Origin: Escherichia coli
GTDB taxonomy: Bacteria; Pseudomonadota; Gammaproteobacteria; Enterobacterales; Enterobacteriaceae
DNA: 64,000 bases
NCBI RefSeq assembly: GCF_003790525.1
Contig: NZ_CP033635.1
Strand: one strand, 5' to 3'
This document shows, piece after piece, positions 11,967-45,437 of this stretch; position 1 is the stretch's first letter, and each line of letters opens with the position of its first letter. Both the position numbers and the translations under genes were made by a program. The notes beneath the pieces are model-generated. The model worked only from the letters and a program-made list of their open reading frames with translations, ran no database searches and was not told where the DNA came from.

Positions 11967-11980
11967 TTGATGTAAAACAA
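11967..11980 (+). promoter_or_regulatory. upstream FNR-type site (TTGAT-N4-AACAA) of the grcA promoter
   Basis: TTGATgtaaAACAA, centred 53 bp upstream of the perfect site; matches the reported two-site FNR arrangement for yfiD/grcA. Confidence 0.6.
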
Positions 11981-12019: not shown

Positions 12020-12033
12020 TTGATTTAAATCAA
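12020..12033 (+). promoter_or_regulatory. consensus FNR site (TTGAT-N4-ATCAA) of the grcA promoter
   Basis: Perfect TTGATttaaATCAA palindrome ~108 bp upstream of the grcA start codon. Confidence 0.8.
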
Positions 12034-12140: not shown

Positions 12141-12524
12141 ATGATTACAGGTATCCAGATTACTAAAGCCGCTAACGACGATCTGCTGAACTCTTTCTGG
12201 CTGCTGGACAGCGAAAAAGGCGAAGCGCGTTGCATCGTTGCGAAAGCAGGTTTTGCAGAAGACGAAGTGGTTGCAGTAAGCAAACTGGGTGACATTGAGT
12301 ACCGTGAAGTTCCAGTAGAAGTGAAACCAGAAGTTCGCGTTGAAGGTGGTCAACACCTGAACGTAAACGTTCTGCGTCGTGAAACTCTGGAAGATGCAGT
12401 TAAGCATCCGGAAAAATATCCGCAGCTGACCATCCGTGTATCCGGTTATGCAGTTCGCTTTAACTCTCTGACTCCGGAACAGCAGCGCGACGTTATCGCT
12501 CGTACCTTTACTGAAAGCCTGTAA
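12141..12524 (+). CDS. grcA: autonomous glycyl radical cofactor (PFL C-terminal domain-like)
   Basis: 127 aa from [20 protein letters not shown]...; glycyl-radical motif RVSGYAVRF near the C-terminus; ORF-track ORF starts 6 codons upstream. Confidence 0.95.
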
Positions 12525-30510: not shown

Positions 30511-32612
<2,102 letters not shown>

Positions 32613-39641: not shown

Positions 39642-40965
39642 ACCTGCGCATTTATTATTGGTCGATGACGATCCGGGATTGCTGAAACTGCTTGGCCTGC
39701 GTCTGACCAGCGAAGGCTACAGCGTGGTCACAGCGGAAAGTGGCGCTGAAGGATTACGGGTACTGAATCGCGAAAAAGTAGATTTAGTCATCAGCGACCT
39801 GCGGATGGATGAAATGGACGGTATGCAGCTGTTTGCTGAAATCCAGAAAGTGCAGCCGGGAATGCCAGTAATTATTCTTACCGCGCATGGTTCTATTCCT
39901 GATGCCGTTGCTGCAACACAGCAGGGCGTGTTCAGTTTTCTCACCAAGCCTGTCGATAAAGATGCGCTATATCAGGCAATTGACGATGCGCTGGAACAAT
40001 CCGCGCCAGCCACCGACGAACGCTGGCGCGAGGCGATTGTCACCCGCAGCCCGCTGATGCTGCGCTTGCTGGAACAGGCGCGGCTGGTGGCACAATCAGA
40101 CGTTAGCGTTTTGATTAACGGCCAGAGCGGCACCGGGAAAGAGATTTTCGCCCAGGCTATCCACAACGCGAGCCCGCGCAACAGCAAACCATTTATTGCT
40201 ATTAACTGTGGCGCATTGCCCGAGCAGTTGCTGGAGTCGGAGCTGTTTGGTCATGCACGTGGCGCGTTTACTGGCGCTGTCAGCAATCGCGAAGGTTTAT
40301 TCCAGGCGGCGGAAGGCGGTACGCTATTTCTTGATGAGATTGGCGATATGCCTGCACCGTTGCAGGTCAAACTGCTGCGCGTGTTGCAGGAGCGTAAAGT
40401 GCGCCCGCTGGGCAGTAACCGCGATATTGATATCGACGTGCGGATTATTTCTGCCACTCACCGCGACCTGCCAAAAGCGATGGCGCGCGGGGAATTCCGC
40501 GAAGATCTCTATTACCGCCTCAACGTTGTCAGCCTGAAAATTCCGGCACTGGCGGAGCGCACAGAAGACATTCCGCTACTGGCAAATCACCTGTTGCGCC
40601 AGGCGGCAGAGCGACATAAACCGTTTGTCCGCGCGTTCTCCACCGATGCGATGAAACGTCTGATGACCGCTAGCTGGCCGGGTAATGTGCGCCAGTTGGT
40701 CAACGTGATTGAACAGTGCGTGGCGCTGACCTCATCTCCGGTGATTAGTGATGCGCTGGTGGAGCAGGCGCTGGAGGGTGAAAATACGGCGCTGCCAACC
40801 TTTGTTGAGGCACGTAATCAGTTTGAACTCAACTATTTGCGTAAGCTGCTGCAAATTACCAAAGGCAACGTCACCCACGCGGCGAGAATGGCGGGGCGCA
40901 ACCGGACAGAATTTTATAAACTGCTTTCCCGACACGAGCTGGATGCAAACGATTTCAAGGAATGA
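39631..40965 (+). CDS. glrR: sigma54-dependent response regulator
   Basis: 444 aa from [21 protein letters not shown]...; receiver domain, AAA+ sigma54-activator motifs ([15 protein letters not shown]) and C-terminal HTH. Overlaps the qseG 3' end by 11 bp. Also called qseF. Confidence 0.93.
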
Positions 40966-40989
40966 ATTGGCGTTATGTGTTACGTTTAG

Positions 40990-41364
<375 letters not shown>

Positions 41365-41376
41365 ACCGCGTCAAGG

Positions 41377-41402
41377 GTTGCCGGATGTTTCCATCCGGCA
41401 AC
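41377..41402. terminator. palindromic hairpin between convergent glnB and hmp
   Basis: GTTGCCGGATG-tttc-CATCCGGCAAC perfect 11-bp stem; flanking U-tracts are weak on both strands. Confidence 0.55.
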
Positions 41403-41408
41403 ATCAAA

Positions 41409-42599
41409 TCACAGCACCTTATGCGGGCCAAAGCATTCGTAATGAATGTTTTCCTGCTTCACGCCCAGATCCACTAACTGTTTCGCGGCAAACTGCATGA
41501 AGCCAACCGGGCCGCAGAGATAGAACTGCATTGTCGGATCGCTGAACGCACCTTCCAGTTTGCTCAAATCCATCAGACCTTCGCTATCAAACTGACCTTT
41601 AGCGCGATCGGCTTCGCTTGGCTGACGATACCAGGTGTGCGCGGTAAAGCGCGGCAGTGCTTGCCCCAGTTCCTTAACTTCATCGGCAAAGGCGTGAACA
41701 TCGCCATTTTCTGCCGCATGGAACCAGTTCACTTGTGCTGTGTGGCCAGCTTTTGCCAGCGTGTCGAGCATTGCCAGCATTGGCGTTTGACCGACACCGG
41801 CAGAGATTAACGTCACTGGTGTGTCATCTGCGACAGCCATAAAGAAATCACCTGCTGGAGCAACCAGTTTCACGACATCGCCAACATTGGCGTGATTGTG
41901 CAGCCAGTTGGATACCTGCCCGCCATCTTCGCGTTTCACCGCAATACGATAGCCTTTGCCATCCGGTTTGCGAGTCAAAGAGTACTGACGAATTTCCTGA
42001 TGCGGGAAACCTTCCGGCTTCAGCCAGACGCCGAGATATTGCCCCGGACGGTATTCTGCCACTGCGCCACCGTCGACCGGCTCCAGTTCGAAGCTGGTGA
42101 TAAGCGCGCTGCGCGGTGTTTTAGCCACAATGCGGAAATCGCGAGTACCTTCCCAGCCACCGGCTTTGCTGGCGTTTTCGTTATAGATTTCCGCCTCGCG
42201 ATTGATAAATACATTAGCCAGGACGCCATAGGCTTTACCCCACGCGTCCAGCACTTCCTGCCCCGGGCTGAACATTTCGTCCAGCGTTGCCAACAGGTGT
42301 TCACCGACGATGTTGTACTGTTCCGGTTTGATCTGGAAACTGGTGTGCTTCTGCGCGATTTTTTCTACCGCTGGCAGCAGCGCAGGCAGGTTTTCAATAT
42401 TGCTGGCGTAGGCGGCAATAGCGTTAAACAGGGCTTCACGTTGATCGCCATTGCGCTGGTTACTCATGTTAAAAATTTCTTTGAGTTCTGGGTTATGAGT
42501 AAACATACGGTCGTAGAAATGGGCGGTTAACTTTGGTCCCGTTTCCACCAGTAAAGGGATGGTGGCTTTTACTGTAGCGATGGTTTGAGCGTCAAGCAT
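41409..42599 (-). CDS. hmp: flavohemoglobin (nitric oxide dioxygenase)
   Basis: 396 aa from [17 protein letters not shown]...; globin domain followed by FAD/NAD-binding reductase domain. Confidence 0.95.
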
Positions 42600-42625
42600 A
42601 TGGTCTTCCTTTTTTTGCATCTTAA

Positions 42626-42648
42626 TTGATGTATCTCAAATGCATCTT
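42626..42648. promoter_or_regulatory. NsrR-type operator at the hmp promoter
   Basis: Minus-strand AAGATGCATTTGAGATACATCAA is close to the NsrR consensus AAGATGCATTTAAAATACATCTT; starts 27 bp upstream of the hmp start codon. Confidence 0.7.
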
Positions 42649-42926
42649 ATAAAAAATAGCCCTGCAATGTAAATGGTTCTTTGGTGTTTTTCAGAAAGAA
42701 TGTGATGAAGTGAAAAATTTGCATCACAAACCTGAAAAGAAATCCGTTTCCGGTTGCAAGCTCTTTATTCTCCAAAGCCTTGCGTAGCCTGAAGGTAATC
42801 GTTTGCGTAAATTCCTTTGTCAAGACCTGTTATCGCACAATGATTCGGTTATACTGTTCGCCGTTGTCCAACAGGACCGCCTATAAAGGCCAAAAATTTT
42901 ATTGTTAGCTGAGTCAGGAGATGCGG

Positions 42927-44180
42927 ATGTTAAAGCGTGAAATGAACATTGCCGATTATGATGCCGAACTGTGGCAGGCTATGGAGCAGGAAAAAGTACG
43001 TCAGGAAGAGCACATCGAACTGATCGCCTCCGAAAACTACACCAGCCCGCGCGTAATGCAGGCGCAGGGTTCTCAGCTGACCAACAAATATGCTGAAGGT
43101 TATCCGGGCAAACGCTACTACGGCGGTTGCGAGTATGTTGATATCGTTGAACAACTGGCGATCGATCGTGCGAAAGAACTGTTCGGCGCTGACTACGCTA
43201 ACGTCCAGCCGCACTCCGGCTCCCAGGCTAACTTTGCGGTGTACACTGCGTTGCTGGAACCAGGCGATACCGTTCTGGGTATGAATCTGGCGCATGGCGG
43301 TCACCTGACTCACGGTTCTCCGGTTAACTTCTCCGGTAAACTGTACAACATCGTTCCTTACGGTATCGATGCTACCGGTCATATCGACTACGCCGATCTG
43401 GAAAAACAAGCCAAAGAACACAAACCGAAAATGATTATCGGTGGCTTCTCTGCATATTCCGGCGTGGTGGACTGGGCGAAAATGCGTGAAATCGCTGACA
43501 GCATCGGTGCTTACCTGTTCGTTGATATGGCGCACGTTGCGGGCCTGGTTGCTGCTGGCGTCTACCCGAACCCGGTTCCTCATGCTCACGTTGTTACTAC
43601 CACCACTCACAAAACCCTGGCGGGTCCGCGCGGCGGCCTGATCCTGGCGAAAGGTGGTAGCGAAGAGCTGTACAAAAAACTGAACTCTGCCGTTTTCCCT
43701 GGTGGTCAGGGCGGCCCGTTGATGCACGTAATCGCTGGTAAAGCGGTTGCTCTGAAAGAAGCGATGGAGCCTGAGTTCAAAACTTACCAGCAGCAGGTCG
43801 CTAAAAACGCTAAAGCGATGGTAGAAGTGTTCCTGGAACGCGGCTACAAAGTGGTTTCCGGCGGCACTGATAACCACCTGTTCCTGGTTGATCTGGTTGA
43901 TAAAAACCTGACCGGTAAAGAAGCTGACGCCGCTCTGGGCCGTGCTAACATCACCGTCAACAAAAACAGCGTACCGAACGATCCGAAGAGCCCGTTTGTG
44001 ACCTCCGGTATTCGTGTAGGTACTCCGGCGATTACCCGTCGTGGCTTTAAAGAAGCCGAAGCGAAAGAACTGGCTGGCTGGATGTGTGACGTGCTGGACA
44101 GCATCAATGATGAAGCTGTTATCGAGCGCATCAAAGGTAAAGTTCTCGACATCTGCGCACGTTATCCGGTTTACGCATAA
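42927..44180 (+). CDS. glyA: serine hydroxymethyltransferase
   Basis: 417 aa from [22 protein letters not shown]...; PLP-lysine region [14 protein letters not shown]. Confidence 0.97.
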
Positions 44181-44200
44181 GCGAAACGGTTAATCTGTTG

Positions 44201-44228
44201 AAAAAAGGCTTCCTTCGGGAAGCCTTTC
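44201..44228. terminator. rho-independent terminator between convergent glyA and yphH
   Basis: AAAAAA-GGCTTCC-ttcg-GGAAGCC-TTTC; A-tract on one side and T-tract on the other. Confidence 0.8.
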
Positions 44229-44243
44229 TACGTTATTGCGCCA

Positions 44244-45437
44244 TCAAATCTGCCGTAACTGCGCCTCAACATACAAATAGCCAATTCCCAGCACCTGCTG
44301 TGCGCGGCTTAATTGCCCAAAGCCAATTTGCGTCGCTTTCACGCTCGGTCCTTCGTCGCGGTCGAACGGGTTAAATCCCGTCTGGCGAATAATGGTATTA
44401 AGCCAGTTCTCACCAAAGGCACAACTGCGACCGTACAACCAAATCTGATTAATATTGAGGATGTTGAGGAAGTTATACAGACTCAAACCAATGGCGTTGG
44501 CAGAGCGATCAACCCAACTGGTGATCCACGGTTCTCCACTCTGCCAGGCAGCGATTAACTGCGCGGTAGTCAGTTTTTCAGGATCAAGCTGAGTATTAAC
44601 CGGTTGTGATTTTAGCCATACCCGCGCCTGTTTTTTTAATGCGCTTAACGAGGCGACGGTTTCCAGGCAGCCGTAACGCCCGCAGTCGCAGACGACGCCA
44701 TCCGGATTAACGATGGTGTGACCAATTTGCCCGCTACCATACAAACTGCCGCGATAAATTTGCTCGTTAATCACGAACGACGAGCCAATGCCGTAATCAA
44801 CGTTGATCACGCAGAAATCCCGTTCCTGCGAATTATTTTGCCATTTCTCCGCCAGCGCCAGCATCACGCAGTCATTATCGACCATCACCCGAATGCCGAG
44901 CTTCTCTTCCAGCAGATACTTTACCTCAACCGGCGTTGTCCACGGCGCTTGCGGCATGGTTTGCGACACGCCAGTCACCGGATCAACCTGACCGTGGATT
45001 GCCAGCGCCAGGTTGATGGTACGGTCCGGCCACAATTTACGGTGGCGATGCCAGCATTTTTCGATTTCGGACAGCAGCGCCTGCGGCGTCGGTGCATCAA
45101 TCTGTAAATACTCAAATTCACCTTTCGGACTTAAACAGGCGTTAGCGACCTGACACTCAATACTGGTGGGCGTCACGTTCAGGCACAGCGTCCAGTCACC
45201 TTCCGGCGCAATCAGCCATGTACCGCTACTATGCCCGCGCGTCTGGCTTTCATCGTCGATATTTACCACCCGTTTTTCGCTTTCCAGTTCCTGCAAAATA
45301 TTACTGACTGCCGGAATCGAAATTTGCGCCAGCCGGGCCAGCGTTGATTTATTGGCGCGCTTTTGCCGGTACAGCAGTTCCAGAATCACGCATTTGTTAT
45401 GGTGGCGAATCTGTTGATTATTAATGCAGGCTCTCAT
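44244..45437 (-). CDS. yphH: ROK/NagC-family transcriptional regulator (uncharacterised)
   Basis: 397 aa from the ATG at 45437 (the ORF track uses a GTG two codons upstream); N-terminal HTH (KSTLARLAQISIPAVSNILQELE) plus ROK sugar-kinase-like domain with CxCGxxGC zinc motif (CDCGRYGCLE). Confidence 0.85.
   Translation of the reverse strand: MRACINNQQIRHHNKCVILELLYRQKRANKSTLARLAQISIPAVSNILQELESEKRVVNIDDESQTRGHSSGTWLIAPEGDWTLCLNVTPTSIECQVANACLSPKGEFEYLQIDAPTPQALLSEIEKCWHRHRKLWPDRTINLALAIHGQVDPVTGVSQTMPQAPWTTPVEVKYLLEEKLGIRVMVDNDCVMLALAEKWQNNSQERDFCVINVDYGIGSSFVINEQIYRGSLYGSGQIGHTIVNPDGVVCDCGRYGCLETVASLSALKKQARVWLKSQPVNTQLDPEKLTTAQLIAAWQSGEPWITSWVDRSANAIGLSLYNFLNILNINQIWLYGRSCAFGENWLNTIIRQTGFNPFDRDEGPSVKATQIGFGQLSRAQQVLGIGYLYVEAQLRQI

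What the first reader, a model, noticed from the sequence alone, without database searches (positions are those of the whole stretch)
42626..42648. Near-consensus NsrR operator in the hmp-glyA divergent region
The 23-bp inverted repeat AAGATGCATTTGAGATACATCAA (minus strand) starts 27 bp upstream of the hmp start codon, matching the nitric-oxide-responsive NsrR operator that represses hmp. It is a sequence-level check on the regulatory annotation.
Basis: partly seen in the sequence, partly recalled or inferred. Interest (0 to 1): 0.2.

Follow-up and report, generated by a model that had tools for sequence, protein, structure and literature searches.

The report
Known NsrR repressor site at hmp

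Summary
The 23-mer AAGATGCATTTGAGATACATCAA lies exactly at 42648..42626 (- strand). Its last base is 27 nt upstream of the hmp ATG (42599), in the 327-bp hmp-glyA divergent region of an E. coli chromosome.

It is the published NsrR 11-1-11 operator. The identical sequence is listed for hmp, with an NsrR ChIP-seq peak, in Mehta et al. 2015.

A leave-one-out NsrR matrix ranks it 1st of 63,978 window positions (18.5 bits; 0.03 expected by chance).

It overlaps the -10 hexamer of a promoter whose -35 and -10 are essentially invariant in 79 Enterobacteriaceae hmp loci. All 79 carry the operator, and conservation collapses just downstream of it.

"Near-consensus" is overstated:
- The left half is perfect, but the right half matches only 7/11.
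- Self-complementarity is 7/11, which is unremarkable on its own.
- The Escherichia site is the weakest NsrR match of the 79, yet among the best FNR-box matches (TTGAGATACATCAA).

It is therefore a composite NsrR/FNR operator, as the literature already describes. I could not check the hmp transcription start in any paper I could access.

Verdict: observation confirmed, interpretation supported, already known, low interest.

The parts
42626..42648 (-). NsrR 11-1-11 operator AAGATGCATTT-G-AGATACATCAA
   Evidence: sequence; leave-one-out PWM 18.5 bits, rank 1 of 63,978; identical sequence in the published ChIP-seq-positive table; present in 79 of 79 Enterobacteriaceae hmp loci
42638..42648 (-). 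Left (promoter-distal) half-site AAGATGCATTT, a perfect consensus half
   Evidence: 0 mismatches; the only exact copy in the window; PatSer 10.92, same score as the ytfE halves; 15.7 bits; 96% identity, 2.13 bits per column across species
42626..42636 (-). Right half-site AGATACATCAA, degenerate (7/11 to consensus AAATGCATCTT)
   Evidence: 4 mismatches; 3.2 bits vs family median 11.8; G at position 14 in 1 of 63 distinct orthologous operators
42626..42639 (.). FNR-type box TTGAGATACATCAA (9/10 to TTGATnnnnATCAA), lying wholly inside the NsrR operator
   Evidence: 1 mismatch; <=2 mismatches only in Escherichia, Citrobacter-group loci and two Klebsiella-group loci; Myers 2013: predicted FNR site at hmp, FNR-dependent expression, no ChIP-seq peak; Rodionov 2005: FNR site conserved only in E. 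coli and Salmonella
42668..42673 (-). hmp promoter -35 hexamer TTTACA
   Evidence: consensus scan; 100% identical in all 79 upstream regions
42644..42649 (-). hmp promoter -10 hexamer TAAGAT (18-nt spacer); the alternative reading TATAAG at 42646..42651 (16-nt spacer) is equally conserved. Either overlaps the left half-site
   Evidence: (95-100% per base); the alternative hexamer was read directly
42637..42637 (-). Inferred hmp transcription start (G, 7 nt after TAAGAT); not verified
   Evidence: Inference from hexamer position. It is consistent with my recollection that the FNR box is described as centred at +5.5, which I could not check in any held paper
42605..42611 (-). hmp Shine-Dalgarno AAGGAAG
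   Evidence: (conserved, 1.70 bits per column, after a poorly conserved gap at 42612..42625)
41409..42599 (-). hmp (NO dioxygenase / flavohaemoglobin) coding sequence, the regulated gene
   Evidence: NF009805 628 bits, full length; annotated hmp/hmpA
42613..42623 (-). Weak third half-site-like copy AAGATGCAAAA; part of a 9-bp direct repeat TAAGATGCA (42616..42624 and 42641..42649)
   Evidence: listed as 'hmp (19)', PatSer 5.0; direct repeat; not conserved outside Escherichia; varies even within E. coli

Best explanation
This is the operator through which the [4Fe-4S] Rrf2-family repressor NsrR shuts off the sigma-70 promoter of hmp. A NsrR dimer binds the 11-1-11 site, which covers the 3' part of the -10 hexamer, the start point and the first ~12 transcribed bases, so RNA polymerase cannot form an open complex. 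Nitric oxide nitrosylates the cluster, NsrR leaves the DNA, and hmp is transcribed. In Escherichia the promoter-proximal half-site also forms an FNR box, so the same 23 bp can be occupied by FNR under anoxia. It is a composite operator in which NsrR affinity appears to have been partly traded away. Shown here: the sequence, its position over a conserved promoter, the motif match and cross-species conservation. Taken from papers: in vivo NsrR occupancy of this exact sequence, NO-sensitive binding of NsrR to the Salmonella version, and the predicted FNR site without a ChIP peak. Inferred: the exact TSS, occlusion as the repression mechanism, and competition between NsrR and FNR.
For: The sequence is identical to the published hmp site, with an NsrR ChIP-seq peak (3.8-fold, summit 34 bp from the start codon), and the same promoter was bound in K-12 ChIP-chip. 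The leave-one-out PWM gives 18.5 bits, rank 1 of 63,978, 0.03 expected by chance, and lies inside the 12.2-31.7 range of known sites. The site overlaps the -10 of a promoter-like element whose hexamers are 95-100% conserved in 79 species. The operator was found in all 79 loci, and in 65 of them it sits 25-27 nt from the ATG. Operator columns average 1.62 bits against 0.78 in the 3' flank, and the central spacer base is the least conserved operator position, as expected for 11-1-11. The Salmonella site AAGATGCATTTGATATACATCAT binds NsrR in EMSA and NO weakens the binding. V. vulnificus NsrR protects -2..+18 of hmpA. For the FNR overlap: a 9/10 box, restricted to the Escherichia/Citrobacter/Salmonella group (Rodionov 2005), and hmp is FNR-responsive with a predicted site.
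Against: The right half-site is poor (3.2 bits), and the site is the weakest NsrR match of 79 orthologues. ChIP enrichment is modest compared with ytfE and hcp. No held paper let me verify the hmp TSS or an E. coli NsrR footprint, so the positions relative to +1 are inferred. The left half overlaps the -10, so part of its conservation is owed to the promoter itself. The correlation between cross-species constraint and the regulon-motif information profile is only modest (rho 0.44, p 0.04; right half alone not significant). The FNR box is not statistically distinctive (6 such boxes in the window vs 2.3 expected), and FNR gave no ChIP-seq peak at hmp.
Confidence: 0.93

Rival explanations
1. The element is essentially an FNR repressor site, and the NsrR resemblance is incidental.
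For: TTGAGATACATCAA matches the FNR consensus 9/10. hmp expression depends on FNR and earlier work reported FNR binding (Myers 2013, citing Cruz-Ramos 2002).
Against: The FNR box is absent (3-7 mismatches) in most of the 79 genera, while the NsrR-type operator is present in all. The perfectly conserved left half-site lies outside the FNR box. FNR gave no ChIP-seq peak at hmp whereas NsrR did. FNR-like boxes of this quality are not rare by chance.
Confidence: 0.04
2. The conservation only reflects core-promoter and initial-transcribed-sequence constraints, and no repressor binds specifically.
For: The left half overlaps the -10 hexamer. The -35 and -10 are themselves invariant. A bare 7/11 inverted repeat is common.
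Against: Conservation extends about 12 nt past the inferred start (A13, A15, T16, C18 and A19 are invariant or nearly so) and then collapses. The PWM match has a 0.03 chance expectation. Published ChIP-seq and EMSA show NsrR binding.
Confidence: 0.02
3. Another reported hmp regulator (Fur, MetR, NarL/NarP) is the main protein acting at these 23 bp.
For: Fur is reported as a weak repressor of hmp, and MetR as an activator acting in the glyA-hmp intergenic region.
Against: The intergenic region has no Fur-box match better than 11/19. The best MetR-like box is at 42711-42723, 60+ bp upstream. There is no NarL/P heptamer in 42600-42700.
Confidence: 0.01

Closest known systems
E. coli hmp NsrR binding site (Rodionov et al. 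2005 prediction; Bodenmiller & Spiro 2006; Partridge et al. 2009 ChIP-chip; Mehta et al. 2015 ChIP-seq, Table 4)
   Same: Identical 23-bp sequence, the same gene and the same distance from the start codon (half-site centres 44 and 19 nt upstream, as in Mehta's Table 2). MG1655 coordinates are 2685786-2685808.
   Different: Nothing; it is the same element.
ytfE NsrR operator AAGATGCATTTAAAATGCATCTT (perfect palindrome)
   Same: Same 11-1-11 architecture, and the left half-site is identical.
   Different: The hmp right half has 4 mismatches. The PWM score is 18.5 bits, against 31.7 for the best-scoring known site. ChIP enrichment is 3.8-fold vs 9.7-fold.
Salmonella Typhimurium hmp operator AAGATGCATTTGATATACATCAT
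   Same: Orthologous position, 21/23 identical. NsrR binds it in EMSA and NO weakens the binding.
   Different: Salmonella has T at position 14 and T at position 23. The loci carrying that same 23-mer (Citrobacter spp.) score 25.9 bits with 1 FNR-box mismatch, and the S. enterica arizonae locus scores 25.8 with 3, against 18.5 and 1 for E. coli.
FNR repressor site of Phmp (Poole et al. 1996; Cruz-Ramos et al. 2002)
   Same: The TTGAG-N4-ATCAA box occupies operator positions 10-23.
   Different: It is a different regulator, and the box is conserved only in close relatives of E. coli. It is 'silent' in FNR ChIP-seq. I could not read the primary papers.
Vibrio vulnificus hmpA NsrR site (DNase I footprint -2 to +18)
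   Same: NsrR site over the hmp(A) start point, 11-1-11-like, repression relieved by NO.
   Different: Different genus; there nsrR is divergently adjacent to hmpA, and Lrp and CRP co-regulate.

Membership tests
NsrR (Rrf2-family) 11-1-11 operator of Enterobacteria | Two 11-bp AAGATGCATTT-like half-sites in inverted orientation separated by 1 bp | tested here: met
   Left half 11/11, right half 7/11, 18/22 overall. Leave-one-out PWM 18.5 bits, within the 12.2-31.7 range of 25 published sites, rank 1 in the window, 0.03 expected by chance. The right half alone is weak (3.2 bits).
NsrR (Rrf2-family) 11-1-11 operator of Enterobacteria | Located in the promoter of an NO-stress gene, positioned to block RNA polymerase | tested here: met
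   26 nt upstream of hmp, overlapping the -10 hexamer of a conserved sigma-70-like promoter. The exact TSS was not verified.
NsrR (Rrf2-family) 11-1-11 operator of Enterobacteria | Conserved at orthologous promoters, with the central spacer base free to vary | tested here: met
   Present in 79 of 79 Enterobacteriaceae hmp loci. The spacer at position 12 is the least conserved operator column (0.69 bit). Operator mean is 1.62 bits against 0.78 for the 3' flank.
NsrR (Rrf2-family) 11-1-11 operator of Enterobacteria | Occupied by NsrR in vivo / bound in vitro | not testable with these tools
   From the literature only: ChIP-seq peak at this exact sequence in CFT073 and ChIP-chip in K-12; EMSA for the Salmonella orthologue.
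NsrR (Rrf2-family) 11-1-11 operator of Enterobacteria | Target gene derepressed by NO or in an nsrR mutant | not testable with these tools
   Stated in held papers citing Bodenmiller & Spiro 2006, and shown for Salmonella hmp-lacZ. The primary E. coli paper is not held.
FNR binding site (TTGAT-N4-ATCAA) | Match to the FNR consensus | tested here: met
   TTGAGATACATCAA, 9/10. However, 6 boxes of this quality occur in the window against 2.3 expected, so the match alone is weak evidence.
FNR binding site (TTGAT-N4-ATCAA) | Conservation at orthologous promoters | tested here: inconclusive
   <=2 mismatches in 25 of 79 sequences, nearly all Escherichia or Citrobacter-group; 3-7 mismatches in the other 54. 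This is consistent with a lineage-specific gain (also Rodionov 2005).
FNR binding site (TTGAT-N4-ATCAA) | In vivo occupancy by FNR | not testable with these tools
   Literature: no FNR ChIP-seq peak at hmp despite a predicted site and FNR-dependent expression (Myers 2013).

The most novel reading that the evidence does not exclude
In the Escherichia lineage the hmp operator was remodelled from a strong, nearly symmetric NsrR site (family consensus AAGATGCATTTAAAATACATCAT, median 26.6 bits) into a weaker composite NsrR/FNR site (18.5 bits). An Escherichia-specific G at operator position 14 (window 42635) lowers the predicted fit to both regulators: G14A would add ~6 bits for NsrR at no FNR cost, and G14T would give a perfect FNR box. 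This could be a deliberate tuning of basal hmp expression. Because the FNR box lies wholly inside the NsrR operator, NsrR occupancy could also explain why FNR is 'silent' at hmp in ChIP-seq.
Probability: 0.3. Interest if true: 0.3.

Novelty: already known. Interest (0 to 1): 0.1.

Why it matters
As a check on regulatory annotation it succeeds: a reader working from sequence alone located a real, experimentally supported operator to the base. Biologically it adds nothing new, because NsrR control of hmp is textbook NO-stress regulation. The one modestly useful by-product is the comparative picture. E. coli, the model organism, carries the least NsrR-like hmp operator among 79 Enterobacteriaceae, because its proximal half also forms an FNR box. 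This matters for anyone using E. coli Phmp as an NO biosensor or transferring NsrR affinity data between species.

Tried and rejected
1. The idealised palindrome with <=3 mismatches found nothing, because the site has 4 mismatches. I replaced this test with an explicit mismatch count and a PWM.

2. The repeat finder reported no inverted repeat in the intergenic region. The symmetry is only 7/11 and is not significant by itself.

4. The primary papers are not held: Bodenmiller & Spiro 2006, Cruz-Ramos 2002, Poole 1996 and Karlinsey 2012. Searches were term-syntax errors.

5. Direct TSS evidence was not obtained. The Kim 2012 supplement is truncated before 2.68 Mb, the Conway 2014 supplement is not held, the Cappable-seq supplement gave no hit, and a full-text search for Phmp architecture returned nothing.

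6. The engineering and review papers gave no promoter coordinates.

7. Fur box, NarL/P heptamers and MetR were rejected as occupants of these 23 bp.

8. Identity to the E. coli base ranked the site only 97th of 305 sliding windows (53rd by column information). This is because the whole intergenic region is well conserved (glyA control elements) and E. coli is the outlier at three operator positions. The sharp contrast is with the immediately downstream 15 nt (0.94 bit), not with the whole region.

9. The second-best PWM hit (32584-32606, 12.6 bits) is below the mean random maximum (13.7) and was dismissed.

Full report
OBSERVATION.
The window's - strand at 42648..42626 reads AAGATGCATTTGAGATACATCAA, exactly as reported. 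hmp occupies 41409..42599 (-). It matches the NCBIfam equivalog for NO-inducible flavohemoprotein over its full length (628 bits). glyA is 42927..44180 (+). The last base of the site is 27 nt upstream of the A of the hmp ATG, with 26 nt in between. The ORF listing entry that starts at 42620 (MQKKEDHM...) is only the longest-ORF extension. PGAP and MG1655 annotation start hmp at the 42599 ATG, which has a Shine-Dalgarno AAGGAAG at 42611..42605.

The DNA is E. coli. The 401-bp intergenic stretch is found once per genome in 5,425 of 5,426 complete E. coli genomes, at >=99% identity in 5,394 of them. In MG1655 the operator is identical and lies at 2685786-2685808. The window is in the opposite orientation to MG1655 and is not MG1655 itself (227 ungapped differences over 3.5 kb).

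IS IT MORE THAN CHANCE?
As an inverted repeat, no. Only 7 of 11 position pairs are complementary, the repeat finder did not report it, and 569 other 23-mers in the window are at least as symmetric.

As a match to the NsrR motif, yes.
- It has 4 mismatches (18/22) to the idealised palindrome AAGATGCATTTnAAATGCATCTT, and nothing else in 64 kb comes within 6 mismatches.
- I built a symmetrised weight matrix from the 25 distinct published CFT073 sites other than hmp (Mehta et al. 2015, Table 4).
- On that matrix the site scores 18.5 bits and ranks first of 63,978 positions. The runner-up scores 12.6.
- Markov-1 simulated windows reach 18.5 bits 0.03 times per window.
- The score lies inside the range of the training sites (12.2-31.7) but below their median (20.8).
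- The asymmetry is strong: the left half contributes 15.7 bits and the right half 3.2.

So "near-consensus" holds for the left half only.

CONTEXT ON THE hmp STRAND.
A sigma-70-like promoter is predicted on the - strand: TTTACA (42673..42668), an 18-nt spacer, then TAAGAT (42649..42644). An equally conserved alternative -10, TATAAG (42651..42646, 16-nt spacer), can be read directly from the sequence. Either hexamer overlaps the left half-site. A start about 7 nt after TAAGAT would be the G at 42637. The operator would then span roughly -11 to +12.

This agrees with my recollection that the FNR box in Phmp is described as centred at +5.5. That is memory only. None of the primary promoter papers is held, and three attempts to find an hmp TSS in open TSS supplements failed.

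COMPARATIVE EVIDENCE.
One genome-collection scan with Hmp returned 80 Enterobacteriaceae loci at 81-99% protein identity. Seventy-eight of them had enough upstream sequence; with the window that gives 79 upstream regions.
- In a MAFFT alignment, the -35 hexamer is 100% identical in all 79 and the -10 bases are 95-100% identical.
- The left half-site averages 96% identity and 2.13 of 2.32 bits.
- The right half averages 76% identity and 1.84 bits.
- The 15 nt between the operator and the Shine-Dalgarno fall to 52% identity and 0.94 bits.
- A PWM scan finds the operator in every locus, 25-27 nt from the ATG in 65 of 79.
- Among the 63 distinct operator variants, A1, A2, A4, T5, A8, T9, A13, A15, T16 and C18 are invariant.
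- The central spacer (position 12, 0.69 bit) is the least conserved operator position, as an 11-1-11 architecture predicts. Position 14 is next at 0.71 bit.
- Operator columns average 1.62 bits against 0.78 for the 8 nt downstream.
- The per-position constraint correlates only modestly with the information profile of the E. coli regulon motif (rho 0.44, p 0.04). For the right half alone the correlation is not significant.

A caveat: the whole intergenic region is well conserved because it also carries the glyA control elements. The operator is therefore not the single most conserved 23-mer in it (53rd of 305 by column information).

WHAT THE LITERATURE SAYS.
- Rodionov et al. 2005 predicted the motif upstream of hmp and noted that it is conserved in enterobacteria, whereas the FNR site is conserved only in E. 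coli and Salmonella.
- Mehta et al. 2015 list TTGATGTATCTCAAATGCATCTT, which is the + strand of this site, as the hmp 11-1-11 site. It is ChIP-seq positive with ln(P) -18.2, sixth of 27. Half-site motifs are centred 44 and 19 nt from the start codon, which reproduces the window geometry exactly. They state that hmp was also bound in the K-12 ChIP-chip study of Partridge et al. 2009.
- The hmp ChIP peak is mid-table at 3.8-fold, against 9.7-fold for the perfect ytfE palindrome and 12-fold for hcp. This agrees with the moderate PWM score.
- In Salmonella, the orthologous 23-mer AAGATGCATTTGATATACATCAT binds purified NsrR in EMSA, NO reduces the binding, and hmp-lacZ responds accordingly. The same paper cites the NsrR-DNA crystal structure 7B0C.
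- In V. vulnificus, NsrR protects -2 to +18 of hmpA.
- Reviews describe the mechanism: an NO-labile [4Fe-4S] cluster that is needed for DNA binding.

THE FNR OVERLAP AND THE E. COLI PECULIARITY.
Operator positions 10-23, TTGAGATACATCAA, match the FNR consensus TTGATnnnnATCAA at 9 of 10 positions. That match is not distinctive on its own: six such boxes occur in the window against 2.3 expected.

Across the 79 loci, the E. coli-type 23-mer (the window and three Escherichia loci) gives the lowest NsrR score: 18.5 bits, against a median of 26.6 and a maximum of 31.0. It is also among the best FNR matches. The two scores trade off across species (Spearman 0.46 between NsrR score and FNR mismatches, p 2e-5). 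Part of this trade-off is mechanical, because FNR prefers ATCAA where NsrR prefers ATCTT.

Single-base substitutions show the following:
- A22 and A23 cost NsrR about 3 and 2.5 bits, and each is an FNR-consensus base.
- The largest loss is G14. Changing it to A would add 6.3 bits for NsrR with no effect on the FNR match. Changing it to T would add 4.9 bits and make the FNR box perfect.

G14 occurs in 1 of 63 distinct orthologous operators.

Within E. coli, the 51-bp core is exact in 5,119 of 5,425 genomes. In the six variant strains I sampled, operator changes fall at positions 7 (C to T or A), 12 (G to A, which removes the FNR-critical G) and 14 (G to A, a reversion to the family consensus in NCTC10444).

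Myers et al. 2013 found that hmp has a predicted FNR site and FNR-dependent expression but no FNR ChIP-seq peak. It is one of their "silent" sites, which they attribute in general to masking by other proteins. Because the FNR box lies entirely inside the NsrR operator, masking by NsrR is a natural hypothesis. I did not test it.

RIVALS.
- An FNR-only reading fails. The invariant left half lies outside the FNR box, and most genera lack the box.
- A promoter-only reading fails. Strong conservation continues about 12 nt beyond the inferred start and then stops, and published binding data exist.
- Fur, MetR and NarL/P motifs do not fit these 23 bp.

VERDICT.
The element is already known in full detail, so interest is low. 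The only additions are quantitative:
- the chance expectation for the motif match;
- the 79-species footprint;
- the finding that the E. coli operator is the weakest NsrR match in its family, because of the embedded FNR box and an unexplained G at position 14.

Noticed in passing
window 11967-11980 and 12020-12033: Two FNR-type boxes, TTGATGTAAAACAA (1 mismatch) and a perfect TTGATTTAAATCAA, lie 53 bp apart in the ung-grcA intergenic region upstream of grcA (yfiD; 12141..12524 +, TIGR04365 234 bits). The 53-bp spacing matches what I recall of the known tandem FNR sites (-93.5 / -40.5) of the yfiD promoter; I did not check that against a paper.
   Followed up: partly
window 42635 (operator position 14): G in the E. 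coli-type operator, but in only 1 of 63 distinct orthologous operators (A in 43, T in 11, C in 8). By the PWM it is the single most costly base for NsrR (-6.3 bits vs A), and it is also the only mismatch to the FNR consensus. One E. coli strain (NCTC10444) has A. No explanation found.
   Followed up: partly
window 42613-42623 and the 9-bp repeat 42616-42624 / 42641-42649: A third, weak NsrR half-site-like copy AAGATGCAAAA (listed as 'hmp (19)' by Mehta et al.) forms a 9-bp direct repeat TAAGATGCA with the -10/left half-site, 25 bp apart. It is Escherichia-specific, varies within E. coli, and contains an in-frame upstream ATG (42620) that makes ORF finders extend hmp by 7 codons.
   Followed up: partly
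window 42711-42723, 42733-42745, 42793-42808: In the glyA-proximal part of the intergenic region there are MetR-like boxes (TGAAAAATTTGCA, 1 mismatch to TGAAnnnnnTTCA; TGAAAAGAAATCC, 2 mismatches) and a PurR-like box (ACGCAAACGATTACCT, 3 mismatches). They lie in or next to blocks highly conserved across 79 species (the top sliding windows start at 42722, 42794-42813 and 42896-42904). These are presumably the known glyA/hmp MetR and PurR sites.
   Followed up: no
window 32584-32606: Second-best NsrR PWM hit in the window (AACAGATAATTAATCTTTAATTT, 12.6 bits). It is below the mean maximum of random windows (13.7), so probably chance. I did not look at the neighbouring genes.
   Followed up: no
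window 40934-44434 vs MG1655 2684000-2687500: The window has 227 ungapped differences from MG1655 over 3.5 kb (some may be due to an indel shifting the register). The source is therefore an E. coli strain other than K-12 MG1655, although the hmp operator and promoter are identical.
   Followed up: no
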